Origin: Escherichia coli
GTDB taxonomy: Bacteria > Pseudomonadota > Gammaproteobacteria > Enterobacterales > Enterobacteriaceae
Assembly (NCBI GenBank): GCA_025544715.1
Contig: GCA_025544715.1_4109.1
Length of the DNA stretch: 64,000 nucleotides
Direction: 5' to 3' (one strand)
A program made the position numbers and the translations under genes. Below the pieces are notes generated by a model that searched no databases, was not told the origin of the DNA, and saw nothing but the letters and a program-made list of their open reading frames with translations. Below, piece after piece: positions 998 through 30,475 of this stretch (the stretch's first letter is position 1; the number at the start of each line of letters is the position of its first letter).

Positions 998-1005
998 TAT
1001 AAATA
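998..1005 (+). promoter_or_regulatory. T4-type late promoter box TATAAATA
   Basis: Exact TATAAATA 35 nt upstream of ATG 1040, followed by GGAG RBS; the window encodes a gp55-like late sigma factor. Confidence 0.5.
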
Positions 1006-14100: not shown

Positions 14101-14496
14101 ATGGCAGTTGTTTTTAAAGGGTTTTCTACCCCTGTAGTTGGTAGAACTGAAACATTGTATGATAGTGAATTGGTTCGCCAAGATTTAATGAATCATTTCA
14201 ATACAAAAAAAGGTGAACGAGCATTTGATGCTGACTATGGGTTTATTGCATGGGATTTGCTATTTGAATTGGAAGGTTATAATACTATCAACCTTTTAGA
14301 AGCAGATGCCCGTAGAATAATTAGCTTAGACCCACGTTTAAATCTTAAAAAATTACAAATTTCAAGAATAGAATATGGATACCAAATGAATATTGTATTA
14401 CAGTACGTAGTATTGGACACATTAGAAGAACTTACTATAGTATTTGATGCAAGAAGTAATAATCGAATGGCAACATATTCAGTTTCGTCTTTATAA
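14101..14496 (+). CDS. Baseplate wedge protein gp25/gpW-like
   Basis: 131 aa; KGERAFDADYG resembles the gp25 GSRPFDPEFG region (recalled); position between spike and gp6-like gene. Confidence 0.8.
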   Translation: MAVVFKGFSTPVVGRTETLYDSELVRQDLMNHFNTKKGERAFDADYGFIAWDLLFELEGYNTINLLEADARRIISLDPRLNLKKLQISRIEYGYQMNIVLQYVVLDTLEELTIVFDARSNNRMATYSVSSL

Positions 14497-14501
14497 TTAT
14501 A

Positions 14502-14530
14502 AAAGCACTCTTCGGAGTGCTTTTCTTTTT
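14502..14530 (+). terminator. Rho-independent terminator
   Basis: GCACTC-ttcg-GAGTGC followed by TTTTCTTTTT. Confidence 0.7.
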
Positions 14531-14597
14531 GAATAAATATTTCTATATATAATTCCCAGTACTGAACTAGTACTTTACTGATTTAAAGGAATAAATT

Positions 14598-17500
14598 ATG
14601 TCACAACAAAAAAGGCAATCAAATTTATACGCTGGTGAGGATTGGACTCAAGTATATGAAAGTTTTTATAAAATCAATCTAACAGCTTATGATTTCGATA
14701 CTATCCGTCAGAGTATGATTGATTATCTACGTGCAACTTACCCAGACTCATTCAACGACTGGATCGAAAACGACCAGTTTATTTTTATTTTAGATACGAT
14801 TTCTATGCTAGGTCAGAACTTGGCATTTCGTATGGATTTGAACACACGTGAAAACTTTTTAGATACTGCAACTCGTCGTGCATCAGTACTAAAACTAGCT
14901 AAAATGATTTCTTACTCACCACGCCGCTCATATCCAGGTCGTGCAGTTGCTAAATTAACCGAAATTAAAACAAACCAAGATGTTCGTAATAGTTTTAATG
15001 AATCATTAAAAGATAAAATCATTCGTTGGAATGACCCGATGGATGCTAACTGGTATGAAAACTTTATTCTAGTAATGAACAGTTCATTTGTCAGTACTAA
15101 CCAATTTGGTAATCCAGTCAAGCGTATTGATGTTAATGGTGTCTCCCGTCAACTATATCGAATGAACACCATCCCAATGACAGCACCCAGTATTCCATTT
15201 ATTGCAACTGTCAATGGTGAATCTATGACATTTGAAGTAGTGAATCCTGACATTACGTCTGTTGGTGTTGAAGAACGACATCCAGAACCACAAGAGCAAA
15301 AATATATTGTTTATCAAAATGATGGTAATGGATTTAGCTCACCAAATACTGGGTTTTTTGTATATTTCGTACAAGGTACATTAACATATCAAGATTATCA
15401 ATATGCTATCCGTGAAGAGAACCGTATACAAGATATTAACGTTGATAATATCAACGAAACTGATGTATGGGTTCAAGAAATAAATGAAGATGGTATTGTT
15501 CGTACCAAATGGACAAAAGTTCCATCAATGGAAAGTATTGCATATAACACTGTTAATCGTCAATTAAAAACAATTTTTGCTGTTACTACTCGTGATAAAG
15601 ACCAAATAACAATTAAGTACCCAGACTCAAGAAGTGGTGTTGTTCCCCGTGGGACGTTCCGTGTATGGTATCGTGTTAGTAATGGTAAAACATATAACAT
15701 TAAAACTTCTGAAATTCAAAACAAAAGCGTAAAATATACATATCGCACAAAAACACAGTCAAGTTATGAATCTAGTACATTGGATATACGTTTTTCATTA
15801 CAATATGAGTCTGACCGTGCACAAAGTGCCGAAACTATTGAGCAAATTAAAGCACGTGCACCACAAATGTACTATACCCAAAACCGTTTTGTCAATGGTG
15901 AAGATTATAATATAGCACCACTTAGTTTAGGAAATACTGTACTTAAATCTAAAGCTATTAATAGAATTTATAGTGGTCAATCAAGGTTCATTGATATCAA
16001 TGATCCTACGGGTAAGTATCAGAATACCGACGTTTTTAGTGATGATGGTGCATTATATCAAGAAAACACGCAATTTAATAGATCGTTATTGCTCCCAACT
16101 ACAAAAACAAATGCTAGTATTGTTATTGACAATATTCAACCATTGATTGGGGAAAATGCAGTAATACAACGTTACCAAGCGTATCCATCCAATACAATTG
16201 GTATTGAAATACAACAAGCATGGACTCCTGTGTACAATTCAAATTACACAACCAATACATATGGCAGAATTTTGGGTTCGTCTGGAACAGTGTATGGTTC
16301 GTATCAGGTAGGTACTCTTATTAAATTTTCTAATTCTGGTACTACGATATGGGCAAGTGTTGTAAGTGTGTTAGATAATGGTTTTTATGTACTAAGCACA
16401 TCTGTTCCTAGTGGAATGCAAGCAATAGAGTACATATTACCATATAGAACTAGATTTAACACAGTTGAAGTTCAGTCTATTTCTGCTATGTTGGATAAAA
16501 AAACCGATTTTGTAATTGTACATGATAAAGAAACAACTTCATGGGTTCCAATCGAAGCAAGTACTAATGACGATACTATTGTGTATAATGGTAATGAAGT
16601 TTTAATTATAATAAATGTAAAATATACTGCTGAAACTTGGGAATTTGATGCTAATGGTATTGAATATATATTTGTGGGTGGGGATAAAGTAAGATTTTAT
16701 TTTGTATCATCTAAAAAAATCACTGATATAAGTACTGGTACAGTTCAAAGTGATAAGATTGAAATTTTATCATCTAACACTACTAGTAGTAGTAATTCAG
16801 GATTGACAAGTAATATAGATTTTCAAATTTATGACACAATTCAACAAGAGAATGGCTATCTAGATGGTTCTCGTGTTATTGTTACATCTAGAAAAGTAGA
16901 TAGTAATGGTATACCGTTGGAACCAAACCAATTTAAAGAAATTGTTCCTACCTGGACAGGAACTGATGCATTAAAATATGGTGGTATTTTGGTATTTCAG
17001 GAAAATAGTGATTTCACTATATCAGTACTGTCTTTACCAAATGATACCTTCACACTTCTTGATTCATCGTGGTCTTATACAATGGAACAAGCCTTGGCAG
17101 AGCCGAATGCATATAAAAGAACTGAATTTGTTAGAAATAACGCAATTCGTTCAACCACATTGAGTGGATTATATAGTAAAGGTTCTGGATTTTTAGTTGG
17201 TTTTAACTATGATGGTAAATATTATTTTATTGAACAAACAGTTGGCAATAACAATGATCGTTTGGGACAACTAATTAGTAATTTAACTTATTCCGATGAT
17301 ACTGGCACTGTTAGTCCTGAATTGGCTTTTTATCGTGCAATTAATAACATGGGAACTAATGCTGACGAGAATCAGAAGCTAGATTATTATGGATACAAAG
17401 ATGTTACTTCACAGTACACTGTTAAAACTAATGCACGTACTAGTATAGACTTCCATTGGAAACACTATGCACCTGACGACAATAGAATTGATCCTAGTAG

Positions 17501-18059
17501 AACAAACTTAATTGATATGTATGTATTAACCAATTCATATAAAACTGAAGTTGACGTTTGGTTGAAAAATAATGCTGTTGGTAGTATTCCTAAACCACCA
17601 ACATCGGTTGAATTGAAAGATATGTTCAAAGATGTTGAACAAAAAATAGTCATTAGTGATAGTATCATTTGGCATAGTGCTGAGTACTTACCTTTATTTG
17701 GAAACAGTGCTGCTGAAGATTACAAAGCTGATTTTAAAGTAGTGAAATTACCAAACAGCACAATGAGTGATGATGAAATTCGTCAAAATGTCATAGCATT
17801 AACTAATGAATACTTCAATGTTGATAACTGGGATTTCGGTGAAAGTTTCTATTATACTGATTTGTGTACTTACATACACTCACAGTTAGGTAGACATATT
17901 AGTACTATTGTTATAGTTGCACAAAATCCAAATTCAAAATTTGGCTCTCTATTTGAAATCCCTTCACGTTCAGACCAAATATTCTTGAGTACTGCATCTG
18001 TTGAAAATGTTCAAATTGTTAACTCACTAGCTAAAAGTAATATTAATATCGGTTCTTAA
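14598..18059 (+). CDS. Baseplate wedge protein gp6/gpJ-like (Baseplate_J family candidate), 1153 aa
   Basis: N-terminal region (YDFDTIRQSMIDYLRATYP...FLDTATRRASVLKLAKMISYSP) fits the recalled Baseplate_J N-terminal pattern; follows gp25-like gene; AAGGAA RBS. Confidence 0.7.
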   Translation: MSQQKRQSNLYAGEDWTQVYESFYKINLTAYDFDTIRQSMIDYLRATYPDSFNDWIENDQFIFILDTISMLGQNLAFRMDLNTRENFLDTATRRASVLKLAKMISYSPRRSYPGRAVAKLTEIKTNQDVRNSFNESLKDKIIRWNDPMDANWYENFILVMNSSFVSTNQFGNPVKRIDVNGVSRQLYRMNTIPMTAPSIPFIATVNGESMTFEVVNPDITSVGVEERHPEPQEQKYIVYQNDGNGFSSPNTGFFVYFVQGTLTYQDYQYAIREENRIQDINVDNINETDVWVQEINEDGIVRTKWTKVPSMESIAYNTVNRQLKTIFAVTTRDKDQITIKYPDSRSGVVPRGTFRVWYRVSNGKTYNIKTSEIQNKSVKYTYRTKTQSSYESSTLDIRFSLQYESDRAQSAETIEQIKARAPQMYYTQNRFVNGEDYNIAPLSLGNTVLKSKAINRIYSGQSRFIDINDPTGKYQNTDVFSDDGALYQENTQFNRSLLLPTTKTNASIVIDNIQPLIGENAVIQRYQAYPSNTIGIEIQQAWTPVYNSNYTTNTYGRILGSSGTVYGSYQVGTLIKFSNSGTTIWASVVSVLDNGFYVLSTSVPSGMQAIEYILPYRTRFNTVEVQSISAMLDKKTDFVIVHDKETTSWVPIEASTNDDTIVYNGNEVLIIINVKYTAETWEFDANGIEYIFVGGDKVRFYFVSSKKITDISTGTVQSDKIEILSSNTTSSSNSGLTSNIDFQIYDTIQQENGYLDGSRVIVTSRKVDSNGIPLEPNQFKEIVPTWTGTDALKYGGILVFQENSDFTISVLSLPNDTFTLLDSSWSYTMEQALAEPNAYKRTEFVRNNAIRSTTLSGLYSKGSGFLVGFNYDGKYYFIEQTVGNNNDRLGQLISNLTYSDDTGTVSPELAFYRAINNMGTNADENQKLDYYGYKDVTSQYTVKTNARTSIDFHWKHYAPDDNRIDPSRTNLIDMYVLTNSYKTEVDVWLKNNAVGSIPKPPTSVELKDMFKDVEQKIVISDSIIWHSAEYLPLFGNSAAEDYKADFKVVKLPNSTMSDDEIRQNVIALTNEYFNVDNWDFGESFYYTDLCTYIHSQLGRHISTIVIVAQNPNSKFGSLFEIPSRSDQIFLSTASVENVQIVNSLAKSNINIGS

Positions 18060-18065
18060 TATAAC

Positions 18066-18090
18066 GGGCGTTCTTCGGAACGCCTTTTTT
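18066..18090 (+). terminator. Rho-independent terminator
   Basis: GGCGTTC-ttcg-GAACGCC followed by TTTTTT. Confidence 0.7.
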
Positions 18091-18138
18091 ATATCATAAA
18101 TAAATCAAATGAATGAACGAATTATATGGAGTCCAAAA

Positions 18139-21100
18139 ATGACTAATAATTTTAAGTTTCAACCTACACAGATGGCTGAAGCAGTACAGAAGAAGCTTTT
18201 TATTAAAAGATTGCCTGAGTGGATGCAAGGCTTAGAAGATATTCAAAAAGTCAGTGATGATGTTATTCAACAATGGTTTAATCCGGCTGAAAACGAATTA
18301 GTTGACGGCTATATTGGTGATATGGGTTCTCCTGCCGCTGCTGGTAATATCTTCTTACATGAAAGTACTGTAGCACGTCAACTTTATCAGTTGTCCACTG
18401 CTTACGTCTCAAAAAATGATGATTCGACAATTCGTTCAATTCAATTTTATGATGATCTAGTTGGATACATGAATCATTATGGAGCACTAACCGATAATGA
18501 AAGCCGTTTGTTCAACGGTAAGTTTTATGCATGGACTCCAGCTATTAACCCAAATAAAATGAACAATTTTAGCTCATATCTTTGGGACACTAAAAACTCT
18601 TATAATATTACTTCACCTGATTACATTGTAATGGAACGTGGAGCACTTAATGGTAATACATGGTCACTACAAAACTTTTGGTATACTTTAGGTGAAACTT
18701 TAGAAGATGGTTCAATTTTAACTGAAGAATTAATGCAAGATTCTCGCTTTATTCGTGCCCGTGCTCCAATTATCGAATATAATAAAAATATTGAACTAAT
18801 TAACTACGGTACAAAATTCCGTGGAACTGTCGATCTATTCTCAGATATAATCAAACCTGAAGATATCGTACAAAAAGATATTAATAGTGGCATCCGTATT
18901 GATGGTATTATTCCACAAGATGGTATGCGTATTCTATTCACCAGTATTGGTAACAATGGTGAAAATAATAGAATTTATAATGTATATGTCAAAAAAATGC
19001 AGGATGGTACTCGTGTTTATGGTTTGGCATTAGATCCAGAAGAAGAAACCGAATCACGCCCAAGTGGTGAACCTCAAGATGGTGATGTTGTTCTAATCAC
19101 CAAAGGTAATGAGTATGGTAACAGTTCTATGTACTGGAATGGTTCTTTGTGGGTTCGTGCACAATCAAAAACTAGTGTTAACGTATTCCCTAAATTCCAA
19201 CTTTATGATCGTAATGGTATCAAACTTGACAACAGTACTACATATCCATCCAGTAACTTCAACGGTTCACAATTGTTTGGATTTAAAATAAATTACAACT
19301 ATGCAACTGATAGTGTATATGGATATAACATCGAACTTGGTGATTACAATTATTACATGTATGAAAACTTTTTACAATCACAACGTTATACCTATGACCA
19401 TCTTGGAATTGAAGTTGAAATTGATGGTTTATACTATTATAATATTATTGATGAAAATAATGAAATGAATCTCCAAACTGATTGGGTTCGTTCAGAAGAG
19501 TACTCTAAACAATATGTAAAACAAACACCACAAGTACAACGTACTGACATGTATCGTGTGTTCAGCACTGTTTATGATATGGAAGTTTTTAAAGAACCTG
19601 TTGATGGTATGTATGCATATGTTGTTGAAGTTGATAGAACCTATCAGTACTATAAAGCAGACCGCGAAACTTATCTAGACTGGCATCCAATCACTGGTGA
19701 TGGTGTTCAGATTGTAAAATATGACCACACATTCGAATTAGCACAAAAAGTTTTAGATAATGATTCTGACATAATTGAAGTTGTTGTTGATGGTGTTGAT
19801 GTATCAAAATATACCAAAAATGTATCAAAAGGTCAAGTTCAAAGTATCACCTTAGATAGCACTGTAGATTTGGATGAAGATTCAGTTATTCAAATTAGAA
19901 CTTATAGCAGTACTGTAACTCCTAATAAAGAATTAGGTGCATATGAAGTTCCAATTAACTTACAAAATAACCCATACAATTCCAATATTATATACATTAA
20001 CCAAGGAGACTACACTCTACATTTTCAGGATATTATTCAAAAGAACATTACAAGTGGTTCATCTGACGATTTTAATGATTATGAAGAACGTTTAGCGAAA
20101 GGATTGGTTAATAATGGTGTTGGCACTAAAATTATCCAAAATGAAGCATCTATGCTTCCATTGATGGCACATACTGCAAATGAAGACATTGATTTGTTTG
20201 AAGCAACTATGTTTATGCAATCTGAATATTTTAGATTTATTAATAAGTTTAATACTCAAATGCTTCGTATGTATGATGAAAATCCATCAGATTTTTTGCA
20301 AAATAGTGCTGCAAATATTGTTGATTCTATTTTAACTACTATCAATATGGGGCGTGATAGTTCATTCCCATTCTATTATGATAATGTTGGGAGTACTTCT
20401 GGATTTATTCGTGCATTTATACCACCAACACCACAGTTCTTGGGTATTCTACAAGCATATGTTCCAGAAAAAGCGACATTCCTTACTGCTGGTAGTAAAC
20501 CAAGCTGTTATAACATCAGTCATACTGGTATTATTTCGAAAGCATATCGTGTCATCAATGGTGTTGATAAAATGGATGATGTTGTATATGAATTAGAAAA
20601 TAGAATTTTTAATAGTATCGATAATAAATTCAAAGATGTTGATTATGTTCCAGTTTTGAACAGTGATGATCTTTTTCCTACACCATATTTCACAAAAACC
20701 GAATATAGTGCAGAAGAGAAACAAACGCTATTGTTACGTGGTTATATTAACTTTACTGCATCTAATGGTATCAGTAATAGTACACATGATTATGATCCTA
20801 ATAATTGGAGAACTTGGAACTATACCGGAACCTATTATGTAGTTAATGGTCAAAGTACTGAAATTCCTGCTCGTGGTTCATGGCGTGCAATTTATACTGA
20901 CCAATATGGTACATATCGCCCTGCAACACATCCGTGGGAAATGTTTGGCTTTTCACAGCGTCCAACTTGGTGGAACCAAGAATATGAACCAACTGCTGTT
21001 CAAGTTGGTGAGCGTGATAGTGATGTGGTATATGTATATGAAGCACTTGTTATGAATGAACAAGGAGATTTAGTTCCTAGTGGTCTATGGGATATCGACG

Positions 21101-24100
21101 GCACTATCGGAGATAGTAGTACTGGTACTATTTTGTCTGGTGATCGCCGTGGACAGTATGACAAATATAAAAGATTTGGTGTACAGCCATTTAAAATCAC
21201 AAAAACTGGTAATAAAACATCTTCCGGTATTGATATTTGTGTTGTTGAATATATTGCACCTGAAATTTTAGGTTTAGTGTCTGGTTCTTTAAATCATAGA
21301 GCAGAACCTTGGGCATATGGTGACATGGGTGACATGGAATTTACATACATGAACACTACATTGTTTGCATATGACCAAATGCTACTTTTGTATAAAGCTA
21401 AACCTGCACAATTTGCTAACTATTTTTGGGATACCCGAAATGACAATTTAAAAGAAGTATTCACTGATGGTTCACAATTCCTTTATGGTGATACACGTAA
21501 GCGTATTAATTTTGATAAAAACACTGTAGTTCATGGTGAAAATAACACAAGAACAATTGGTTATCAAATGTTTGTTAGTGATTATTTGATGTATCAAAAT
21601 AAAAACATTACAACCAAATATGGGGATGTAGTTCGTTCTTCTTATATAAATGTTGGTCATAAAATTGGTGGTTTTACTAAAGCAGATCAGCTAACATTCA
21701 ATGCTAAATCATTTGGTCTTATTTCACAAGAAAACCAAACTATTGGTCTTGTTCGCTCGAATAATATTCGTGATGAACAAATGAGTGCTATCAAAATTAC
21801 TTGGAATGGTAGTGCATATCAGATTGATGGATATGATTTAGTTGGTGCTAAATTCAAATATAAACTGCCAGTGAAAAATGGTAGAAAAGTAACTCTTAAA
21901 TTAGAAAACCGCAATGTTGTTCATTATAACGAATGGAAATCTGAAGCTTCCATTGAATATGGTAAAGTTTTTAATAGTTACCAAGAAGTTTATACTTTTA
22001 TTTGTGGTTATGGTGAATATCTTAAAGAACATGGCTGGATTTTTGAAGATGTAAATGATAGTGGTGCTCAACAAGATTGGAACACTATTGCTAAAGATTT
22101 TGTGATCTGGAGTCAGAATTCTCTGGTAACGGGTGAATTTATTTCTTGTACACCAAGTGCAGCAAATGCTAAATTTGGTGCAGACTTTGGTTCAGTTCAA
22201 TCTATTACACAAAATAACGGTGGTGTGTGGTCATTACTTGATGATAACAACCAAGGTATACGTCAATATGAAATTGAAACTTCTCGTATTGGTAATATCT
22301 TTACTGTTAGAACTTTAGAATCCAATAAACGTATAGCATTAATTCGTTTAAGTTTGTGTTCATATGAACATGCTGTTATTTTTGATGATAAGACTATTTT
22401 TGGTGATTATATCTATCAGCCAACTTATGGTTCTATTCAAGAATTAATTAAAATGTATGGCTACATTACTGGTTCATGGACTGGTCGTCTACAAGCTCCT
22501 GGATTTATTATCTTGGAAGCTGGAACACTACCATCATTTGAAAAATTAGTGTCGGATTTCCAACATTATTATGATAGTGAAACTCCAGTAAGTGATGTAC
22601 AATTACAAGAGTTGTCAAACCATTTGATTGGTTATCAATCTCGTGATTATCTACAGCGTATGATTAGTAGTGATGTTAGTCGTGTTGATTTCTATAAAGG
22701 ATTCATTCATGATAAAGGTACTAACCAAGTTTTAGAACGTGTACTTCGTGTTTCTAAATCATATGACACTGATGAATATAAAGCATTACAAGAATGGGCA
22801 TTTAAAATTGGTACATATGGTAATATTGATGGTAAGAAAAATCTTCAATTTAAATTGATTAATGACCAATTTAAACAACAACCTCAAATGGTTTCTTTTG
22901 ATGTAAATGCAACTTCAAATGGTAATGGTAATCATATTGTATACTTTGGTGAGCAGGGTAAAGATCCTCGTTGGATTACACGTCCAAATGGTAAGTTCTC
23001 ATTCCCAATGCGTAGTGGAAGAAGTGAAAATATCCAACTTCCAGATATTGGTCCAGTAACATTGGATGAAGTATCGTACACAACAAAAGATTTCAGTACT
23101 GCATATAATGACCGCATAACTTATACTAATGGTAAAGGTGAAAATCCTGAATCTGTGTGGATGTTTAAAGACGGTAATGGCTTGTGGAACATTTTTGAAT
23201 TGGTTGATACTAATGTGCAAATGGTTTCTATAACACCTATTGAAAATACCGATGTGTATGCTGAACAATTTTGTAAAGTAACTTTAACTGATAATGTACC
23301 ACTTGAAGATGGTGATTATTATTATTTTGTTGATGAAACTAACTTTATGCCAGATACTTTAACAGTAGAAAGTCAATATTATACTGCTGGTTCTGATCCT
23401 AAAGTTATGGTAGTTCCATTTGACACTTCTATTGATATTGAATTTACTGATCCAGATACACGCCCACGTTTGTATCGTTATGTATCACGTTTTGTCAGTA
23501 CTGATGAACGTCAAGCTTACATTGACAAGAAATATAGTTTTAAAGCACCACAAAGTACTTTATTTGATCGTCCAACAACATATGACGAACGTACTAACAT
23601 TACTGAGCTATATCTAAACGTTTATGACCCAATTAATGGTGTTATTCCAGGTGCGGCTATGCAAAACGTAACATATACTTCACCAGTTGATCCTGCACAG
23701 TATAATAGTAATGGAGAGTTAATCCAAGCTTGGGGTGCTGATAAAGTTGGTCAAGTATGGTGGAACACTAGCACTGCATTTTATTTGGATTATACTCGTG
23801 CAATTTATGACGCAGACGGTAATGTTGACATTGATGCAACAAATGAATACAAACGTTACAACTGGGGTCGTTTATTACCACATAGTACAATTGATGTGTT
23901 AGAGTGGGTTTGTTCACCAGTTGAGCCATATAACTGGGACAAATACTGTAAAGATGTTGCTAAGAAAAACAAAAATAATACTATGTATCTACCAAGTGGA
24001 ACTGCACTTGAAGATAATTATAGTACATTTTTGGAATATGATAGTTCAACTGATAGTTATGTGACAAAATACTATTTCTGGGTACGTGATACAATTTATG

Positions 24101-27100
24101 TACCACCACTACATACCAGAACAAAATCATGTACTGACATTGCTCGTATTATTAAAGATCCAACACAGCTAAACATTCCTTGGTTCGCTCCAATCAATGA
24201 AAACTCGTTTATTCTTAGTAATATGCAATTTAAAGTTAATGATGATACCAGTATTTTAACTGTTTCTTATTACATGGATAGTACTGAAGTTGTTAAACAT
24301 GACCAGTATCAACTATGTAAAGAAGGTGACAGCTATAACTTTAACCCACTAATTTGGGATTCAATGTGGAACTCACTAATTGGTCAAGAAACAACTGAAT
24401 CAGGTTCTGTGATTAATTTATTATATCCAGATGTTGATAACGGTTTAGGATCAAACAAAACTTGGTTCCAAAATGTTATAGAAGCTCGTAGAAACTTTGT
24501 AGAAAGTGCTAATAATTATTATAGGTCACAAAACATAACCACTAATAGTGTTGTTATGGAAGATGTGTTTAATGTTAAAACCACTGAAGTTAACCCGAAT
24601 GAAGTTTCTTTCCGTGTATTGTCTTACAATAATGAATTAGTTATTGCAGTTGAAAGTGATAAATTTAAAGAAAATGACGCTGTTATTTTAAGTACTAGTG
24701 GATATCTACCAAATCCATTAACTTCTAGTGCTGTTTATTTTATTCACTTCGACGAAAATGGATATATTCAGTTAATGAATAGTCCAGCAAACGCGGGTAG
24801 TGTTGTTACTATAACGTTAGAGAACAAAGGTGAGGGTCAACATAAAATGATTAAACAATCTGATTATGTTGAATCACTAGGAACTTCATTGGACATGACT
24901 CAGTACTGGTCATATGCTGATTGGTATGATGTTGGGTATGATAGTAACACGACTTATACTCAAGAGTCAAGCTTAGAAGATGCTAATACTAAAAACTACC
25001 AAGTTGGTGATATTATCAGAGTTACCGATAGTGAAAACATTTGGACATTGTATATTAAATCACAATCACGCGATTCAATTTATTGGAAAGCGATTGGTCG
25101 TGAAAACAGTACAGTTGAACTCAATGATATGCTTTACGCAGATTATAGTGTTCATAATGATAATGGTTCACTAAGCAATCGTGAAATCAACGTTCGTAAA
25201 GCACTCGCTTTACTCAAAAATTCTTTCGATTTACATCAAAGCGAAATTGTTTTTGATATGGTCAAATATGTACATGTTGAACAAAGTGTTGTGGATTGGG
25301 TATTTAAAACATCATATATCTATATTGTTGGTTTGGAACAATCATTAGTTCAAAACTATTCAAACGATAATTTGATTAATCAAATTGTTGAATATTTTGA
25401 AGAAGTTAAACCTTATAGAACTAAAATTCGTTCACAAATAGAGCAAAAGACATCTGATGATGATTTAATAAAAGGTCTGTGTAATGATTTAGATCCTAAT
25501 GGATATATTTTCGTTGACGGTTCTTGGGTCAAAACTGAAAAAGATATTTGGGATTATGAGTACGCTCAATTTAATGAAATTACCCAAAAATGGGAACAGG
25601 TAGGTTCACTACCAAGCGATTTCATTACACCAAATAGAAGATTCCAAGAAATTGATATTATTATGCATTACGATAACATTCAATGTAAACCAAATGCAGA
25701 TTTGGCAAGCATAAATGAATTAGTAAGTGTTAATAACAAATATCAATCCAATGAAAAGGATGCTGTTAGTAACTATGAATTACAACGTTATATATATTCT
25801 TTCCCAGAATATAGTGAAGAAACTTTCGATCTTCTTATTGCTTATCAAATGCAAATCTACTATCCAGAATTGGATGTAACACTAGGAACAGCATATGGCG
25901 TTAACCAGTGGTATAAAGACCATGCGGAAGATTTAGAAGCAACTGATGAATTTACTGCTACATTGGAGCGTGTTTATAAAGAATCAACGCAGAACGATAT
26001 GTTTACTGACCTTAGACAATATGTTCAGTATAACACATTGGCAAACCGTTTGAAACTTTATAAAGATATAAGTGATGAGAAAATTCACGATGAAGTTGGT
26101 TGTGGATTTAGTGGACTTACTTATAATGACAATCCTAGTACTAGACTTCCATTAGGCTTTTCTTCTAGTAATGATTATAACTATGGATATTTTGAAATAA
26201 GCAGTGAACTGTATCAAAAATATATTTCATTAATTAAAGATAAAAATCCTGACGCATCAGACTATGAAGTAAAAGTTAAACTTGAAGTTGAGTATGGTGT
26301 ATATGTTTATCGTTATGATGAAGTCGGTGGTGATACCCGTTTCTATACTGATGCTATTCACGTATTAGCAGGTATGAGAGGGTTATTCGACAAAGACGCT
26401 ACTGATAAGTACGAAAAAGCTGAAGAGATTCTTAGTAAAACCCCAATTGATATCTATGCAATTACAATGATTCCAAGAAAATATGTTTACTTAAATGTTA
26501 ACGGTGTATATCAAAGTATACCTGATGAACAAAGTATTGATGATTTCATGGAAGATTATTTTATCACAAATGGTGAAATGATTGAACTAGCTGAAATAAA
26601 TCTAGATGATTTACCACTAGATCAAAATAACCCAATGTATTCAGATTATCAATATATACTTGATAGTATTACTGAAGCTAAGTACTTCAATGATATGAAT
26701 GCATTTGATAACCTAGCATTAGAATCTCAAACTTCTTCAATAAAATGGGAAGTTAAAGATGATGAAGTTGATCCTTATATTGTGGATATATCTGATATAA
26801 ACCCTTCTGGGCGTGATGTTGGTCAAATTAGATTTACAGTTGATGGATATGGGTTTGACAATGTATCTCTTGTACAACTACGTGATAACAGCAGATATCA
26901 AACTGAAGGTATGGCAATTATCAATCCATATAAACATACAGAAGCAATTGTTAGTATTCCTTCATATGCTAAGATTGAAAATGATATTAATAAAACAACA
27001 TCGAAGTTTGATGAAAAATATTTCTATCGTGTGAGATCTATTAATAGCTTAACTGAAGCAGAAATAGTTGACAATGACCTATCTGATGGTGATAAGGTGA

Positions 27101-28110
27101 TGATTTTCACTCCTGATGGTGAAGATTTTGTGAGATATCAAAATCACACATGGGAAACAATCTTGCGTGTATCTAATATCAAAAACAATACAACTCCGAT
27201 CCTATTCACTGTAAGAAATACAGGTAAAGAAACGATTGAATTGATTGATGAGAGTACTGGTGCAGTTCTCCGTTATGATAATATCACTCTTGCACAACAA
27301 AATGAGCCAGTACAGCCTCTTGCATTGAACATTGTTCGTGTTAGAACATTTGCTGACCCAGAATTTGTGAAGAATGGTATCAAATTGTACGAACAAAATA
27401 GAAATTACACAATTGATGTAATTAATTATGATGTTTTCTACGATACTACTTTAAATGGTGGTAAGTACAATGACGGAATAACACCAGATGACGTTGACGT
27501 TTGGGTAATCTCTAACGAAATATTTGATGTTGATGGAATTACTATCGACAACGGTTATAACCTACCAATTACTGGTGCGGGAGTTCTTAGTGAATTAGCA
27601 AGAACTAAAATGACTGATAGTTTAGAAATCAACGTTATTGAATATGATTCAAGTGTTATTCAACCGTTTAGAAATAATGAAGGTATATGGGTTTATGGAT
27701 ATCCAATGGTTGACGGTATGTACATCGGTGTTGTTGGTGGTACGGTTACTAACATCACAACCATTAGTGAAGAAAATACAACCTATGTTTCTCAACCTAA
27801 ATCAATAAGTCCTTATAGTATTAGAAATAATGTTTTATCCGGTTCAGCCGCGAACATGAATGATATTATATCGATTGGATATGAAAAAGTTGAAGTTAGA
27901 AATGCAAATAATTTACTTCGTGGAGTAATGTATAGTGCAGAACATGATTTTAAACTTAATACTACATATTCATTCAATGGAATTAATTTAGGTAATTATG
28001 ATATGTTAAAACGTTACACACAAAATAGTTACACTATAGATCTTTCAGTATACACTGATAGTCTACAAGTTAGTGGTAATGATATTAAAAATATATTATT
28101 AGTTAAGTAA
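18139..28110 (+). CDS. Giant virion protein (about 3320 aa), presumably baseplate or fibre-associated
   Basis: Uninterrupted 10 kb ORF in the baseplate operon. Start moved to ATG 18139 (GGAG RBS; CATAAATA box overlaps track start 18109). Non-repetitive; no catalytic motif recognised by eye. Confidence 0.85.
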   Translation: MTNNFKFQPTQMAEAVQKKLFIKRLPEWMQGLEDIQKVSDDVIQQWFNPAENELVDGYIGDMGSPAAAGNIFLHESTVARQLYQLSTAYVSKNDDSTIRSIQFYDDLVGYMNHYGALTDNESRLFNGKFYAWTPAINPNKMNNFSSYLWDTKNSYNITSPDYIVMERGALNGNTWSLQNFWYTLGETLEDGSILTEELMQDSRFIRARAPIIEYNKNIELINYGTKFRGTVDLFSDIIKPEDIVQKDINSGIRIDGIIPQDGMRILFTSIGNNGENNRIYNVYVKKMQDGTRVYGLALDPEEETESRPSGEPQDGDVVLITKGNEYGNSSMYWNGSLWVRAQSKTSVNVFPKFQLYDRNGIKLDNSTTYPSSNFNGSQLFGFKINYNYATDSVYGYNIELGDYNYYMYENFLQSQRYTYDHLGIEVEIDGLYYYNIIDENNEMNLQTDWVRSEEYSKQYVKQTPQVQRTDMYRVFSTVYDMEVFKEPVDGMYAYVVEVDRTYQYYKADRETYLDWHPITGDGVQIVKYDHTFELAQKVLDNDSDIIEVVVDGVDVSKYTKNVSKGQVQSITLDSTVDLDEDSVIQIRTYSSTVTPNKELGAYEVPINLQNNPYNSNIIYINQGDYTLHFQDIIQKNITSGSSDDFNDYEERLAKGLVNNGVGTKIIQNEASMLPLMAHTANEDIDLFEATMFMQSEYFRFINKFNTQMLRMYDENPSDFLQNSAANIVDSILTTINMGRDSSFPFYYDNVGSTSGFIRAFIPPTPQFLGILQAYVPEKATFLTAGSKPSCYNISHTGIISKAYRVINGVDKMDDVVYELENRIFNSIDNKFKDVDYVPVLNSDDLFPTPYFTKTEYSAEEKQTLLLRGYINFTASNGISNSTHDYDPNNWRTWNYTGTYYVVNGQSTEIPARGSWRAIYTDQYGTYRPATHPWEMFGFSQRPTWWNQEYEPTAVQVGERDSDVVYVYEALVMNEQGDLVPSGLWDIDGTIGDSSTGTILSGDRRGQYDKYKRFGVQPFKITKTGNKTSSGIDICVVEYIAPEILGLVSGSLNHRAEPWAYGDMGDMEFTYMNTTLFAYDQMLLLYKAKPAQFANYFWDTRNDNLKEVFTDGSQFLYGDTRKRINFDKNTVVHGENNTRTIGYQMFVSDYLMYQNKNITTKYGDVVRSSYINVGHKIGGFTKADQLTFNAKSFGLISQENQTIGLVRSNNIRDEQMSAIKITWNGSAYQIDGYDLVGAKFKYKLPVKNGRKVTLKLENRNVVHYNEWKSEASIEYGKVFNSYQEVYTFICGYGEYLKEHGWIFEDVNDSGAQQDWNTIAKDFVIWSQNSLVTGEFISCTPSAANAKFGADFGSVQSITQNNGGVWSLLDDNNQGIRQYEIETSRIGNIFTVRTLESNKRIALIRLSLCSYEHAVIFDDKTIFGDYIYQPTYGSIQELIKMYGYITGSWTGRLQAPGFIILEAGTLPSFEKLVSDFQHYYDSETPVSDVQLQELSNHLIGYQSRDYLQRMISSDVSRVDFYKGFIHDKGTNQVLERVLRVSKSYDTDEYKALQEWAFKIGTYGNIDGKKNLQFKLINDQFKQQPQMVSFDVNATSNGNGNHIVYFGEQGKDPRWITRPNGKFSFPMRSGRSENIQLPDIGPVTLDEVSYTTKDFSTAYNDRITYTNGKGENPESVWMFKDGNGLWNIFELVDTNVQMVSITPIENTDVYAEQFCKVTLTDNVPLEDGDYYYFVDETNFMPDTLTVESQYYTAGSDPKVMVVPFDTSIDIEFTDPDTRPRLYRYVSRFVSTDERQAYIDKKYSFKAPQSTLFDRPTTYDERTNITELYLNVYDPINGVIPGAAMQNVTYTSPVDPAQYNSNGELIQAWGADKVGQVWWNTSTAFYLDYTRAIYDADGNVDIDATNEYKRYNWGRLLPHSTIDVLEWVCSPVEPYNWDKYCKDVAKKNKNNTMYLPSGTALEDNYSTFLEYDSSTDSYVTKYYFWVRDTIYVPPLHTRTKSCTDIARIIKDPTQLNIPWFAPINENSFILSNMQFKVNDDTSILTVSYYMDSTEVVKHDQYQLCKEGDSYNFNPLIWDSMWNSLIGQETTESGSVINLLYPDVDNGLGSNKTWFQNVIEARRNFVESANNYYRSQNITTNSVVMEDVFNVKTTEVNPNEVSFRVLSYNNELVIAVESDKFKENDAVILSTSGYLPNPLTSSAVYFIHFDENGYIQLMNSPANAGSVVTITLENKGEGQHKMIKQSDYVESLGTSLDMTQYWSYADWYDVGYDSNTTYTQESSLEDANTKNYQVGDIIRVTDSENIWTLYIKSQSRDSIYWKAIGRENSTVELNDMLYADYSVHNDNGSLSNREINVRKALALLKNSFDLHQSEIVFDMVKYVHVEQSVVDWVFKTSYIYIVGLEQSLVQNYSNDNLINQIVEYFEEVKPYRTKIRSQIEQKTSDDDLIKGLCNDLDPNGYIFVDGSWVKTEKDIWDYEYAQFNEITQKWEQVGSLPSDFITPNRRFQEIDIIMHYDNIQCKPNADLASINELVSVNNKYQSNEKDAVSNYELQRYIYSFPEYSEETFDLLIAYQMQIYYPELDVTLGTAYGVNQWYKDHAEDLEATDEFTATLERVYKESTQNDMFTDLRQYVQYNTLANRLKLYKDISDEKIHDEVGCGFSGLTYNDNPSTRLPLGFSSSNDYNYGYFEISSELYQKYISLIKDKNPDASDYEVKVKLEVEYGVYVYRYDEVGGDTRFYTDAIHVLAGMRGLFDKDATDKYEKAEEILSKTPIDIYAITMIPRKYVYLNVNGVYQSIPDEQSIDDFMEDYFITNGEMIELAEINLDDLPLDQNNPMYSDYQYILDSITEAKYFNDMNAFDNLALESQTSSIKWEVKDDEVDPYIVDISDINPSGRDVGQIRFTVDGYGFDNVSLVQLRDNSRYQTEGMAIINPYKHTEAIVSIPSYAKIENDINKTTSKFDEKYFYRVRSINSLTEAEIVDNDLSDGDKVMIFTPDGEDFVRYQNHTWETILRVSNIKNNTTPILFTVRNTGKETIELIDESTGAVLRYDNITLAQQNEPVQPLALNIVRVRTFADPEFVKNGIKLYEQNRNYTIDVINYDVFYDTTLNGGKYNDGITPDDVDVWVISNEIFDVDGITIDNGYNLPITGAGVLSELARTKMTDSLEINVIEYDSSVIQPFRNNEGIWVYGYPMVDGMYIGVVGGTVTNITTISEENTTYVSQPKSISPYSIRNNVLSGSAANMNDIISIGYEKVEVRNANNLLRGVMYSAEHDFKLNTTYSFNGINLGNYDMLKRYTQNSYTIDLSVYTDSLQVSGNDIKNILLVK

Positions 28111-28112
28111 TA

Positions 28113-28146
28113 AAAAAGGAGAGCATATTGCTCTCCTTTTCTTTTT
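28113..28146. terminator. Bidirectional rho-independent terminator
   Basis: A-run, GGAGAGC-atatt-GCTCTCC, T-run; between convergent stops of the giant gene and clpA. Confidence 0.7.
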
Positions 28147-30435
28147 TTATGCCAGTGCTTTATCTACAGCTTTGGAACGTTTCGGTTTAATACCGATTTT
28201 ACCATCAATAACATCAAATGTAATGTTACCACCATTCACAAGTGAACCACACAACATTTCTTTAGCTAGTGGTACACGAATGTTTTGTTCAATGGTACGT
28301 TTCATTGGACGTGCACCCATGCCAACTTTTACCCCATTTTTCGCAAGCCATTCACGTGCAGCTTTTGTCAATGTAACTTTAACATTGCGGTCTTTGACTT
28401 GTTCATTCAAACTGCCCATGAACTTATCAATGATGCTGTCAATAGCTTCACTGCTTAGGTCTTTAAACGTAACGATACTATCAATACGGTTAATGAACTC
28501 TGGTGGCAAGAATGCTTTAATTGCCTTGTCTTGTGCAGTATCACTACCGCTCATACCAATGCTACGCTTCGTTGAATCTGCCGCACCAAGGTTTGTAGTC
28601 ATAATAACAGTTACGTTATTAAAATATACAGTTTTACCTTGTGAACCAGTCAGGCGACCTTCATCCAAAACCTGTAGGAAGGTTAGTAGTACTTTACGAT
28701 CTGCTTTTTCAATTTCATCAAGTAACAGTACTGCATTAGGGAACTGCTCAATTTTATCCAACAGTAAACCGTTACCAGAATCATGACCAACATAACCTGG
28801 AGGTGAACCAATTAGTTTAGAAACAGTATGTTCTTGAGAAAATTCTGACATATCAAAGCGAATCAGTTCCGCACCAGTTGCATCTGCTAATGCTTTGGTA
28901 ATTTCTGTTTTACCAGTACCAGATGGTCCAACAAACATAAATGCACCCTGAACACTAGATTTGTCACGCAGTCCTGCACGAGCTACCATCACGTTATCAA
29001 CTAATTTTTGAATAGCTTCCTCTTGACCGTATACACGTGAGCGTAGTGCATCTGGTAGATTACGCATACGATCACTTTCAGTACATGCAACCACGTTGAT
29101 ATCCAAATTGGCAATGCCAGCAACAACTTCTTGAATCAAATTGGCAGTAATAAGCTTACTATTGTTGTCACGTGAACGAACTTTAGCAGCAGCAGCGTCC
29201 ATTAGATCAATCGCTTTATCTGGGAAGTGCTTATTCTTCAGGAATTTATCACTGAGAGAAATTACAGCATCCATTGCATCAGTTGTGAACTCAACATTAT
29301 GGAATTTTTCATAAGTTGGTTTCAAACCATTAACAATTGCACGAGTTTCATCAATTGTCGGCTCAACTACATCAATTTTCATAAAACGACGAGTTAATGC
29401 ACTATCTTTCTCGATATTTTTACGATATTCATCATATGTTGTTGCACCAATTACACGAATCTCACCACGTGAAAGTGCTGGCTTAAGCATATTGCTCATG
29501 TCCATAGAACCATTACTTGCGGAACCAGCCCCAACCATAATATGAATTTCATCAATGAAAACAATAGTATTTTCACGTTTCTTTAGTTCTTTTAGCAAAT
29601 TGTCGATACGTTCTTCAAACTCACCACGATACTTAGTACCAGCAGTCAATGCACCAACATTTAGTGAAAGAATTTCAACGTCTTTCAGGTGTTCAGGTAC
29701 GTTGCCGTCAGCAATAGCTTGTGCAAGACCGTCGATGATTTGTGTTTTACCTACACCAGCTTCACCAGTGAGAATAGCATTCTTTTTGGTCTTGCGAGCA
29801 AGAGTCTCAATCAATGCAGACAATTCTTTCTGGCGACCAATCATAGGATCTAGTTTGCCTTCTTTTGCAAGAGCAGTTAGATTCGTTGTATAGTCTTCCA
29901 AACCTTTTTGTTTAGATGATTGCTGCTGTTGGGCCACTTTTTTATCTCCAATCGGTTCGTCATTAATGCTTTGTAAGTTGATACCCTTATCAAGTGACTC
30001 AACGTGTTTTTGTAATGCACGTGCAGCTTCAGTACAGCTAACACCTTCTTCTTTTAACGCAGCTTCTAGTGCTGTGTTAGGGAAAGACAGACATTCGAAT
30101 AGAACAAAATATGCATCAATCGAAAAATCATCACTTTTTAGTTGTTCAATAACTGATTTTTTAGAAAGCTCATGTACAACGCGATTCACTAGAAGTGAAG
30201 TACGATTCGCGTCTTCATCTTTAACACTTTTTGGTGCATGTGGAACTGTTGTATTTTTAAGATAGTTCATCAGGCGGTTGTGCAGTTTGTCTGCATCAAT
30301 GTTCATATCTTCAAATACGTTCTTGATGCTATCAATAGTCAGTACTGTGGCACTTACGTGGTCAATAGTCAAGAATGTATGACCTAGAGATGTTGCCAGT
30401 TCGTCGCTTTTTTTGAACAATTGAGTAAGATTCAT
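28147..30435 (-). CDS. clpA: ClpA-type AAA+ unfoldase (Clp protease ATP-binding subunit)
   Basis: Clp N-domain; AAA-1 Walker A GEAGVGKT and Walker B IVFIDEIH; AAA-2 Walker A GPSGTGKT and Walker [10 protein letters not shown]; SIGMSGSD aligns to the ClpA IGL loop; [11 protein letters not shown] sensor; no ClpB-type middle domain. Start placed at ATG with AGGAG RBS (track start 30456 is an upstream GTG). Confidence 0.9.
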
Positions 30436-30475
30436 GTATTCTCCTATGTGATTCACGTCACTCTAATTAATAAAC

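What the first reader, a model, noticed from the sequence alone, without database searches (positions are those of the whole stretch)
18139..28110. Uninterrupted ORF of about 3320 codons in the baseplate operon
A single open frame of about 10 kb directly follows the gp6-like gene and ends at a bidirectional terminator. It is not low-complexity or tandemly repetitive, unlike the downstream fibre genes. Its length roughly equals the summed length of the T4 wedge and short-fibre proteins gp7 through gp12 (about 3000 aa), so it may be a fused baseplate periphery; this is speculation.
Basis: partly seen in the sequence, partly recalled or inferred. Interest (0 to 1): 0.55.

Follow-up and report, generated by a model that had tools for sequence, protein, structure and literature searches.

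The report
Giant baseplate protein of jumbo phages
This 10-kb gene is real and encodes a 3,323-residue virion protein of a 121Q/RaK2-type jumbo phage that sits where the baseplate wedge protein gp7 would be, but it is not a fusion of the T4 proteins gp7 to gp12; it belongs to a large, structurally uncharacterised family of giant phage proteins.

The parts
14101..14496 (+). gp25-like sheath-initiator gene (context, first gene of the conserved trio)
   Evidence: 131-aa ORF; Pfam GPW_gp25 E 1.2e-8, above the curated cut-off.
14598..18059 (+). gp6-like baseplate wedge gene, 1,153 aa (context, presumed partner)
   Evidence: PHROG 10646 full length and PHROG 219 'baseplate wedge subunit' E 1.2e-20; annotated as T4 gp6-like in 121Q; orthologues in distant loci carry PF27647.
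18066..18085 (+). Terminator-like hairpin between the gp6-like gene and the giant ORF
   Evidence: 8-bp stem with 5 GC pairs followed by a T-run; MFE -15.2 kcal/mol, z -5.1; RaK2 has a hairpin of different sequence at the same position.
18096..18102 (+). Late-promoter-like motif ATAAATA (CATAAATA), 43 nt before the start codon
   Evidence: 13 copies in the window, 9 of them in the 10.6% non-ORF sequence, and 10 lie 7-65 nt upstream of a same-strand start; ATAAATAAA is also present upstream of the RaK2 orthologue; a T4 gp55-like late sigma factor is annotated in 121Q. Function is inferred.
18128..18131 (+). Shine-Dalgarno-like GGAG, 7 nt before the ATG at 18139
   Evidence: Read directly from the sequence.
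18139..28110 (+). Giant ORF: 3,323 codons plus stop, about 382 kDa virion protein
   Evidence: 97.4% nt identity to 121Q gene 582; PHROG 10938 full length.
18139..18594 (+). aa 1-152: N-terminal module that defines the family (helices at about aa 21-47); proposed wedge-anchoring part
   Evidence: Conserved in all homologues; 1,336 clusters match it, always at their own N-terminus in the 150 listed; pLDDT below 50 for aa 1-19, 48-75 and 82-93. The anchoring role is inferred.
18595..21288 (+). aa 153-1050: confidently modelled multi-domain body (beta-rich aa 100-600, helical aa 600-950, beta aa 950-1050)
21289..25488 (+). aa 1051-2450: second half of the conserved backbone (blocks 1047-1260, 1270-1460, 1462-1700, 1805-2135, 2245-2450)
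22387..22833 (+). aa 1417-1565: lies within the most conserved part of the family, partly helical, poorly modelled as a monomer
   Evidence: Identity profile, invariant residues, pLDDT 35-48. Its role is unexplained; an interface is suspected.
25489..28107 (+). aa 2451-3323: faster-evolving C-terminal third specific to the Rak2-like group
   Evidence: 76-78% vs about 90% identity in the closest homologue, and absent from distant homologues; found once per genome, at the end of this gene, in 72 of 73 phage records (the 73rd, a Vibrio phage, matches only 11% of it). No structure model was made.
28114..28140 (.). Bidirectional terminator hairpin shared with the convergent ClpA-like gene
   Evidence: 12-bp stem flanked by an A-run and a T-run; the stem GGAGAGC/GCTCTCC is conserved in RaK2.

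Best explanation
The ORF encodes a giant, single-chain structural protein of the baseplate. It occupies the genetic slot, and most likely the architectural slot, of the peripheral wedge protein (T4 gp7, P2 gpI, XM1 gp17, Pam3 gp23). Proposed mechanism, with each step marked. (1) Shown: it is a real gene under strong purifying selection, its product is in virions, and it is always encoded right after the gp25-like and gp6-like genes. (2) Inferred: the universally conserved N-terminal module of about 150 residues, which is helical at its start and does not fold confidently alone, inserts into the wedge together with two copies of the 1,153-aa gp6-like protein. That would give one giant chain per wedge, six per virion, about 2.3 MDa. 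(3) Partly shown: the next 2,300 residues form a conserved multi-domain backbone. Homologues keep it collinear, and the fold of its first third is reproduced in independent predictions for relatives. (4) Inferred: this backbone forms the baseplate periphery, and so stands in for T4 gp7, gp8, gp10 and gp11 in function, not by descent. It offers docking sites for the separately encoded branched tail fibres. Its Ig/pilin-like domains, and in relatives its inserted CBM_5_12 and FG-GAP modules, face the host surface. (5) Inferred: fibre or surface engagement is passed through this chain to the gp6-like/gp25-like core to trigger sheath contraction, as in other contractile tails. The gene appears to be its own late transcription unit, bracketed by terminator hairpins.
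For: Reality and selection. Identity: 97.4% to 121Q gene 582 'virion structural protein'. Virion presence: phAPEC6 gp245, 381.88 kDa, 17 unique peptides, listed next to gp244 'baseplate wedge' (PMC7247149); CBB_236, 3,340 aa, 21 peptides (PMC5259590). Synteny hub-lysozyme / gp25 / gp6-like / giant / fibre genes: here, in RaK2, and in relatives 24-28% identical, where the giant's start abuts or overlaps the end of the gp6-like gene. [quoted passage not shown] The gp7-like part is described as an evolutionary hotspot for fibre attachment (PMC8894135). N-terminal module: always N-terminal in the 150 listed hits, 1,336 clusters, helices at aa 21-47, low pLDDT. Backbone: nine collinear blocks. Accessory CBM_5_12 and FG-GAP_2 modules sit at block junctions and in the C-terminal part of relatives. 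Domain-level resemblance to fibre/tailspike adaptor domains and to adhesin/pilin Ig-like domains. Among the T4 core proteins the CBB authors matched, gp7-gp12 do not appear in the passages shown.
Against: No sequence, profile or fold similarity to gp7 or any gp7-class protein was detected. The N-terminal module shows no profile similarity to the gp6-like N-terminus, although in XM1 the two are structural paralogues. The wedge-anchoring role rests on gene position and on a poorly modelled segment. Copy number and location within the baseplate are not known. The phAPEC6 tail map is only about 25 A. Residues 2240-3323 were never modelled. Only the 64-kb window and its annotation were inspected, so a small conventional gp7-like protein elsewhere in the 350-kb genome is not excluded.
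Confidence: 0.55

Rival explanations
1. One reading: the ORF is a head-to-tail fusion of homologues of the T4 wedge and short-fibre proteins gp7, gp8, gp9, gp10, gp11 and gp12.
Confidence: 0.04
2. It is mainly an extended adhesin or fibre: a monomeric chain of domains attached to the baseplate, for example the short (about 29 nm) baseplate fibres with terminal knobs seen on CBB. In this reading it acts as a receptor-binding protein and is not an integral wedge component.
Against: There are no repeats, so it is not a beads-on-a-string array of similar domains. The first 1,050 residues have a defined global arrangement that is reproduced in independently predicted relatives (TM 0.65-0.77 over about 1,100 columns; pTM 0.58). 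That points to a compact body. The C-terminal third is not mosaic: one place per genome, and identity follows phylogeny. That part is 99% identical in phages isolated on E. coli and on Salmonella, whereas the neighbouring fibre gene differs in length from its 121Q counterpart. This protein itself has no Pfam binding module. The strictly conserved position after the gp6-like gene and the invariant N-terminal module suggest a core assembly role.
Confidence: 0.22
3. It is a virion protein with a different role: material of the tail or capsid 'hairs' of phAPEC6 and CBB, a tape-measure-like or internal protein, or an ejected protein.
For: At about 3,300 residues, an extended chain could reach roughly 100 nm, comparable with the 119-nm tail hairs of CBB. 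Function is unassigned in every paper read. One GenBank record labels the orthologue 'D-alanyl-D-alanine carboxypeptidase'.
Against: The family occurs in every Rak2-like record found and in far more distant jumbo-phage contigs, always inside the baseplate gene trio. The RaK2 description I read does not mention tail hairs. Low peptide coverage fits a low-copy baseplate protein. The predicted structure is largely beta-rich and multi-domain, not a long helical tape measure. There are no enzyme family hits in Pfam, NCBIfam or PDB sequences.
Confidence: 0.1
4. The long frame is an artefact: an assembly error that masks frameshifts, or a chance ORF.
For: One record (Salmonella phage SD-1_S14) annotates three CDS under the match. 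One metagenome bin splits it into three ORFs.
Against: The other frames carry 158-582 stops. Ka/Ks is 0.026. At least 35 phage genomes hold the full-length match, and many independent assemblies from 99% to 24% identity encode full-length proteins. Peptides were detected in two phages. In the metagenome bin, the conserved residues lie in the gaps in shifted frames next to homopolymer runs, so that copy is the error-prone or decayed one.
Confidence: 0.01

Closest known systems
121Q gp582 / phAPEC6 gp245 / PBECO4 / RaK2 ORF070w / CBB_236 / GAP32_230 (PHROG 10938, 'virion structural protein')
   Same: Direct orthologues: 97% nt identity to the coliphage copies, 58-64% aa identity to the more distant Rak2-like members, full-length collinear, same neighbours (gp6-like upstream, ClpA-like downstream). 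Detected in virions by mass spectrometry.
   Different: Nothing of substance; this window's copy is one more allele. None of these records or papers assigns a role.
Peripheral wedge protein of contractile tails: T4 gp7 (1,032 aa), XM1 gp17 (242 aa), Pam3 gp23, P2 gpI, T6SS TssG (the last two from my own knowledge)
   Same: Same gene position, immediately after the gp25-like and gp6-like genes. Virion and baseplate association. A large, lineage-variable protein with a conserved N-terminal anchoring element followed by fibre-facing domains. This matches the description of the gp7-like part as a hotspot for re-engineering.
   Different: No detectable sequence, profile or fold similarity. It is 3 to 14 times longer. 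The N-terminal module is not recognisably related to the gp6-like N-terminus. Membership is therefore not established, only positional and presumed functional equivalence.
T4 baseplate periphery as a set (gp8, gp9, gp10, gp11, gp12)
   Same: Probably the same overall job: to build the periphery, hold the fibres and contact the cell.
   Different: T4 uses dimeric and trimeric subunits encoded by five genes. Here there is one non-repetitive chain with unrelated folds.
N-terminal adaptor domains of tail fibres and tailspikes (CBA120 TSP4 residues 1-250, T7 gp17 N-terminus, podophage fibre N-termini)
Multi-protein peripheral baseplates of phiKZ and Goslar
   Same: Jumbo myophages with greatly enlarged baseplate peripheries.

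Membership tests
Rak2-like giant virion protein family (PHROG 10938 and its wider metagenomic superfamily) | Full-length collinear homology | tested here: met
   PHROG 10938 E=0 over residues 1-3320. 204 homologues, collinear blocks. N-terminal module found in 1,336 clusters.
Rak2-like giant virion protein family (PHROG 10938 and its wider metagenomic superfamily) | Position directly after the gp25-like and gp6-like genes | tested here: met
   Window; 121Q; RaK2; L002, L003, L006.
gp7-class peripheral wedge protein (T4 gp7 / XM1 gp17 / Pam3 gp23 / P2 gpI / TssG) | Gene immediately downstream of the gp6-like wedge gene | tested here: met
   The reference gene order and wedge composition are from PMC9942802 and PMC10457771.
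gp7-class peripheral wedge protein (T4 gp7 / XM1 gp17 / Pam3 gp23 / P2 gpI / TssG) | Sequence or profile homology to a known gp7-class protein | tested here: not met
   hhalign of the full family against T4 gp7: probability 0.6%. N-terminal module against T4 gp7: 1.3%. HMMER: negative scores. Pfam, PHROG, NCBIfam and PDB sequences give no such hit. Only T4 gp7 was compared directly; P2 gpI, Mu gp48 and TssG only through the libraries.
gp7-class peripheral wedge protein (T4 gp7 / XM1 gp17 / Pam3 gp23 / P2 gpI / TssG) | Fold similarity to gp7-class chains in solved baseplates | tested here: not met
gp7-class peripheral wedge protein (T4 gp7 / XM1 gp17 / Pam3 gp23 / P2 gpI / TssG) | N-terminal helix-turn-helix that joins two gp6-like chains in the core bundle, paralogous to the gp6-like N-terminal domain | tested here: inconclusive
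   Helices are predicted at aa 21-24, 27-30 and 33-47, with pLDDT below 50 in the flanking segments, and the module is universally conserved. However, hhalign against the gp6-like N-termini gives probability 0.2%.
gp7-class peripheral wedge protein (T4 gp7 / XM1 gp17 / Pam3 gp23 / P2 gpI / TssG) | One copy per wedge, located at the wedge periphery and carrying the fibre docking sites | not testable with these tools
   Needs cryo-EM or quantitative proteomics. Published mass spectrometry shows only presence in virions.
Fusion of T4 gp8/gp9/gp10/gp11/gp12 homologues | Sequence similarity to any of these proteins | tested here: not met
   Negative HMMER scores for all. hhalign against gp10: probability 0.1%.
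Fusion of T4 gp8/gp9/gp10/gp11/gp12 homologues | Fold similarity to these proteins | tested here: not met
Tail fibre / receptor-binding protein | Repetitive or trimeric fibrous shaft | tested here: not met
   No internal repeats. The models show mixed globular domains.
Tail fibre / receptor-binding protein | Mosaic, horizontally exchanged C-terminal specificity domain | tested here: not met
   The C-terminal third occurs once per genome, only at the end of this gene, and its identity follows phylogeny.
Tail fibre / receptor-binding protein | Recognisable carbohydrate- or receptor-binding modules | tested here: inconclusive
   None in this protein. CBM_5_12, FG-GAP_2, LamG and TIG are present as inserts in distant family members. 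Ig/pilin-like domains appear only at low Z.

The most novel reading that the evidence does not exclude
The conserved 2,450-residue backbone could be a previously undescribed way to build a contractile-tail baseplate. In this reading, a single monomeric mega-chain per wedge, made largely of folds without solved analogues, forms the whole periphery that T4 builds from about 13 chains of six proteins. It would also act as a surface-sensing platform into which lineages insert carbohydrate-binding and adhesion modules. The family (at least 1,336 clusters at 50% identity) would then be the hallmark baseplate protein of a very large, mostly uncultured clade of jumbo phages. Its most conserved but unmodellable segment (aa 1417-1565) would be the contraction-trigger interface.
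Probability: 0.35. Interest if true: 0.6.

Novelty: new variant of a known kind. Interest (0 to 1): 0.4.

Why it matters
The gene itself is not new. It has been in GenBank since RaK2 and GAP32, and virion proteomics has detected its product, but it is still labelled 'hypothetical' or 'virion structural protein'. This analysis places it: it is the gp7-slot protein of the baseplate, it defines a very large family of 2-6 kaa proteins in jumbo-phage contigs, and it has no solved structural relative. If the single-chain periphery model is right, these phages solve the baseplate problem differently from T4, phiKZ or the minimal myophages. The protein would then be the obvious target for cryo-EM and for understanding how the branched fibre systems of therapeutic candidates such as RaK2, phiK64-1 and phAPEC6 are anchored and how they signal contraction. 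For annotation, the N-terminal module is a compact marker (153 profile positions) for this gene in metagenomes, including fragmented or frameshifted copies.

Tried and rejected
1. Direct family assignment failed. Pfam, NCBIfam and PDB sequence searches with the single protein and with family profiles gave nothing significant. The best hit was GCN5 at E 0.5, rejected as chance.

2. Homology to the T4 periphery was rejected. hhalign and HMMER against T4 gp53, gp5, gp6, gp7, gp8, gp9, gp10, gp11, gp12 and wac were all negative.

4. A test for paralogy between the giant's N-terminal module and the gp6-like N-terminus, as seen for XM1 gp17 DI and gp16 DI, was negative. I treat this as inconclusive, because such paralogy is often visible only in structure.

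5. A naturally split version of the gene looked possible in a metagenome bin (1575 + 574 + at least 1860 aa). I rejected it: the conserved residues lie in the inter-ORF gaps in shifted frames beside homopolymer runs.

6. A search for a canonical T4 late promoter, TATAAATA, upstream of the ORF found none there. The relaxed core ATAAATA is present and is strongly associated with gene starts.

7. The literature gave no functional assignment. I checked papers on RaK2, CBB, phAPEC6, PA5oct, Atu_ph07, Sharanji and phiKp24, the RaK2 adsorption-complex paper, and the 2026 jumbo-phage review. phAPEC6 peptide positions are not held as text.

22-row alignments were used instead, which probably limited the quality of the second model.

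Full report
OBSERVATION. The + strand frame from 18109 to 28110 is open. It is preceded by GGAG at 18128-18131. It is the annotated start of the orthologue in phage 121Q, and it is the start shared by the family alignment. The product is 3,323 residues. The other five frames of the same 9,972 nt contain 158-582 stop codons each, so an open frame of this length cannot be chance.

Comparison with 121Q (97.4% nt identity) gives 232 synonymous and 26 non-synonymous differences. Ka/Ks is 0.026 overall and no more than 0.13 in each of six segments. Self-BLASTP finds no internal repeat, amino-acid composition is even, and Tandem Repeats Finder reports only two trivial 11-nt arrays. The same stem occurs in RaK2.

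One correction is needed. The ORF does not simply abut the gp6-like gene. The 79-nt spacer contains a strong terminator-like hairpin at 18066-18085 (MFE -15.2 kcal/mol, z = -5.1). RaK2 has a hairpin of different sequence at the same position. After the hairpin comes ATAAATA at 18096-18102. That heptamer occurs 13 times in the window. Nine copies fall in the 10.6% of sequence outside long ORFs, and ten lie 7-65 nt upstream of a start codon on the same strand. It resembles the T4 late-promoter core, and a gp55-like late sigma factor is annotated nearby in 121Q. The giant gene therefore looks like its own late transcription unit.

WHAT THE WINDOW IS. The region is 96.7-97.4% identical to Escherichia jumbo phages 121Q, PBECO4, phAPEC6, SP27 and relatives (genus Asteriusvirus). 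At least 35 deposited genomes hold the full-length match. In 121Q the gene is number 582, 'virion structural protein', and it lies after genes for a gp53-like wedge subunit, a gp5-like hub lysozyme, a second lysozyme, a gp25-like protein and a T4 gp6-like wedge protein.

In this window I verified three of these neighbours. The gp25-like gene is at 14101-14496 (Pfam GPW_gp25). The gp6-like gene is at 14598-18059 (PHROG 219 'baseplate wedge subunit', E 1e-20). The gp5-like hub is confirmed by Phage_base_V and Phage_lysozyme domains. The convergent downstream gene, 28147-30456, is a full-length ClpA/ClpB-class AAA+ protein.

WHAT IS ALREADY KNOWN. The protein is a confirmed virion component. In phAPEC6, Table 1 of PMC7247149 lists gp245, 'hypothetical protein', 381.88 kDa, with 17 unique peptides and 7.6% coverage, directly after gp244, 'baseplate wedge', 131 kDa. 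In phage CBB, CBB_236 (3,340 aa, 379.94 kDa) gave 21 peptides. The authors equate it with GAP32_230 and RaK2 ORF070w, and they used 'the largest ORF' to align Rak2-like genomes. PA5oct gp128, one of its two largest proteins, is numbered next to gp129, a baseplate wedge protein. None of the papers I could read assigns a function.

FAMILY AND ARCHITECTURE. A search of 5.8 billion proteins returned 204 homologues. Every one of the 120 listed is a giant of 2,780-5,638 aa, with identities from 99% down to about 24%. Pairwise HMMER mapping shows nine collinear conserved blocks: aa 16-152, 158-465, 545-750, 757-952, 1047-1260, 1270-1460, 1462-1700, 1805-2135 and 2245-2450. Distant relatives carry lineage-specific insertions at the junctions, of 80-550 aa after the first block and up to about 1,700 aa between 1700 and 1805. 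In two relatives, these insertions and the C-terminal part contain FG-GAP_2 repeats and CBM_5_12 modules. Others carry LamG and TIG domains.

The C-terminal 870 residues are conserved only within the Rak2-like group, and they evolve faster than the backbone: 76-78% versus about 90% identity in the closest homologue, and 54-60% versus about 80% in the next. They are not mosaic. In the phage collection this part occurs once per genome, at the end of this gene in 72 of 73 records (the 73rd, a Vibrio phage, matches only 11% of it), and its identity follows phylogeny.

A profile of the first 152 residues, run against 1.84 billion cluster representatives, found 1,336 clusters at E<=1e-3 and 474 at E<=1e-30. 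In the 150 listed, the match is always at the very N-terminus of the target, and most targets are 2.2-6.3 kaa. One apparently shorter member (1,575 aa) turned out to be a frameshifted copy.

The gene order hub-lysozyme, gp25-like, gp6-like (about 1,130-1,190 aa, PF27647), giant, then fibre genes is kept in contigs whose giant is only 24-28% identical. In two of them the giant's start abuts or overlaps the end of the gp6-like gene.

T4 gp7 to gp12 do sum to 3,002 residues. However, the family HMM gives negative bit scores against T4 gp53, gp5, gp6, gp7, gp8, gp9, gp10, gp11, gp12 and wac. hhalign probabilities are 0.6% for gp7 and 0.1% for gp10. Pfam, NCBIfam and PDB sequence searches, with the single sequence and with profiles, are empty or insignificant.

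I modelled two thirds of the protein with AlphaFold2 on 22-row alignments. Residues 1-1050 gave mean pLDDT 83, low only in the first 100 residues. Residues 1040-2239 gave mean pLDDT 65, with confident parts at about aa 1209-1409, 1569-2039 and 2149-2239.

Foldseek against predicted viral structures found strong matches only to N-terminal fragments of family members. These include the 'Structural protein' of Agrobacterium jumbo phage Atu_ph07, with TM 0.65-0.77 over about 1,100 columns. This also shows that the domain arrangement of the first third is reproducible, and so compact rather than beads on a string. The fusion hypothesis is therefore not supported for residues 1-2239.

By established knowledge of the T4 baseplate (my recall), gp9-gp12 are trimers and gp8 is a dimer, which a single non-repetitive chain cannot reproduce. 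In RaK2, gp9-like and gp10-like modules were reported on the separate tail-fibre proteins (PMC10253068).

BEST EXPLANATION. In every contractile tail solved so far, each wedge is built on a heterotrimer of two gp6-like chains and one gp7-like chain. The genes follow the sheath-initiator (gp25-like) gene in that order. The gp7-like chain lies at the periphery and carries the fibre docking sites (Pam3, PMC9942802; XM1, PMC10457771). [quoted passage not shown] The gp7-like part has been described as an evolutionary hotspot for re-engineering (PMC8894135).

The giant ORF occupies exactly this slot. It has a universally conserved N-terminal module with helices at aa 21-47 that does not fold confidently on its own. 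It is followed in relatives by fibre genes. I therefore propose that it is the functional counterpart of gp7, expanded into a single-chain periphery. The N-terminal module would anchor in the wedge. The conserved backbone of about 2,300 residues would form the peripheral body and dock the branched fibres. The exposed Ig-like domains, and the inserted binding modules of relatives, would face the cell. Six copies would add about 2.3 MDa to the baseplate.

This is positional and architectural inference, not demonstrated homology. The defining molecular features of gp7 were tested and not found, and the N-terminal module shows no profile similarity to the gp6-like N-terminus. I put the confidence at 0.55. 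That it is a baseplate-associated structural protein is much more secure, about 0.85.

RIVALS. The protein could be mainly an extended adhesin or baseplate fibre (0.22). This is favoured by the adhesin-like domain matches and the binding-module inserts. It is disfavoured by the lack of repeats, the compact reproducible N-terminal third, the non-mosaic C-terminus, and the 99% identity of the C-terminal third between phages isolated on E. coli and on Salmonella. Other virion roles, such as tail hairs or an internal or ejected protein, get 0.10. The T4 gp7-gp12 fusion gets 0.04. An artefact gets 0.01 or less.

UNEXPLAINED. The most conserved stretch of the family, about aa 1401-1565, includes invariant R1403, E1410, H1411, D1416, W1447, R1450 and K1526. 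It is the part AF2 models worst. It may be an inter-subunit interface, but this is not resolved. Residues 2240-3323 were not modelled.

VERDICT. The gene is already annotated and its product has been detected by proteomics. The added value here is its placement in the gp7 slot, the definition of its module structure and of a very large family, and the finding that most of it has no solved structural relative. I rate it a new variant of a known kind, with interest 0.4.

Noticed in passing
window 998-1005, 2885, 7535, 13557, 13574, 14533, 18096, 36148(-), 36183, 49090, 60699(-), 61224(-): The heptamer ATAAATA (a relaxed T4 late-promoter core) occurs 13 times. Nine copies are in the 10.6% of sequence outside long ORFs, and ten lie 7-65 nt upstream of a same-strand start codon. 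This suggests the late-promoter consensus of this phage group is NATAAATA. The full T4 octamer TATAAATA occurs only 3 times.
   Followed up: partly
window 18066-18085; L005 (RaK2) about 4577-4597: The terminator-like hairpin between the gp6-like gene and the giant ORF is kept in RaK2 with a different stem sequence (GGCGTCCA-CTG-TGGACGCC). This is compensatory conservation. It could lower giant-gene transcription relative to the gp6-like gene, where the expected protein ratio is 1:2. In distant relatives the two genes abut or overlap instead.
   Followed up: partly
window 28147-30456 (- strand): A full-length ClpA/ClpB/ClpV-class double AAA+ protein (TIGR02639 ClpA, E 6e-227) is encoded convergently with the giant ORF. 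The adjacency is kept in 121Q, RaK2 (ORF069) and CBB, where a ClpA/B-family protein is listed directly before CBB_236. It is not kept in the distant relatives L002 and L003. It might act as a chaperone for the 382-kDa protein, but that is pure speculation.
   Followed up: no
window 14497-14597 vs L001 (121Q) 15622-16459: 121Q carries an HNH endonuclease gene (gene 584, noted as associated with a group I intron) between the gp25-like and gp6-like genes. This window has only a 101-nt spacer there, with a hairpin at 14501-14524 and ATAAATA at 14533. This is a presence/absence polymorphism of a homing-type element.
   Followed up: no
L006 6001-16728 (GCA_012033295.1, JAAURC010000028.1) and L007: A metagenome-assembled relative has the giant gene broken into ORFs of 1575, 574 and at least 1860 aa. 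The conserved residues, for example YYFW, lie in the inter-ORF gaps in shifted frames next to homopolymer runs. These are frameshift errors or decay, not a natural multi-gene version.
   Followed up: yes
GenBank OQ411014.1 (phage EJP2) 144889-147534; OR699183.1 (Salmonella phage SD-1_S14): The EJP2 orthologue is annotated 'D-alanyl-D-alanine carboxypeptidase', which no family or structure search here supports. The SD-1_S14 record has three hypothetical CDS under the match, which probably reflects frameshifts in that record.
   Followed up: no
window 22339-22833 (aa 1401-1565): The most conserved segment of the whole family, with invariant R1403, E1410, H1411, D1416, W1447, R1450 and K1526, is the segment AlphaFold models with the lowest confidence. 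It is either an interface or an unrecognised functional site.
   Followed up: partly
window 40548-45101 vs L001 42411-47936: The tail-fibre gene annotated 'long tail fiber proximal subunit' is 1,517 aa here but 1,841 aa in 121Q, although the giant ORF is 97.4% identical between the two phages. Host-range variation seems to reside in the fibre genes rather than in the giant protein.
   Followed up: no
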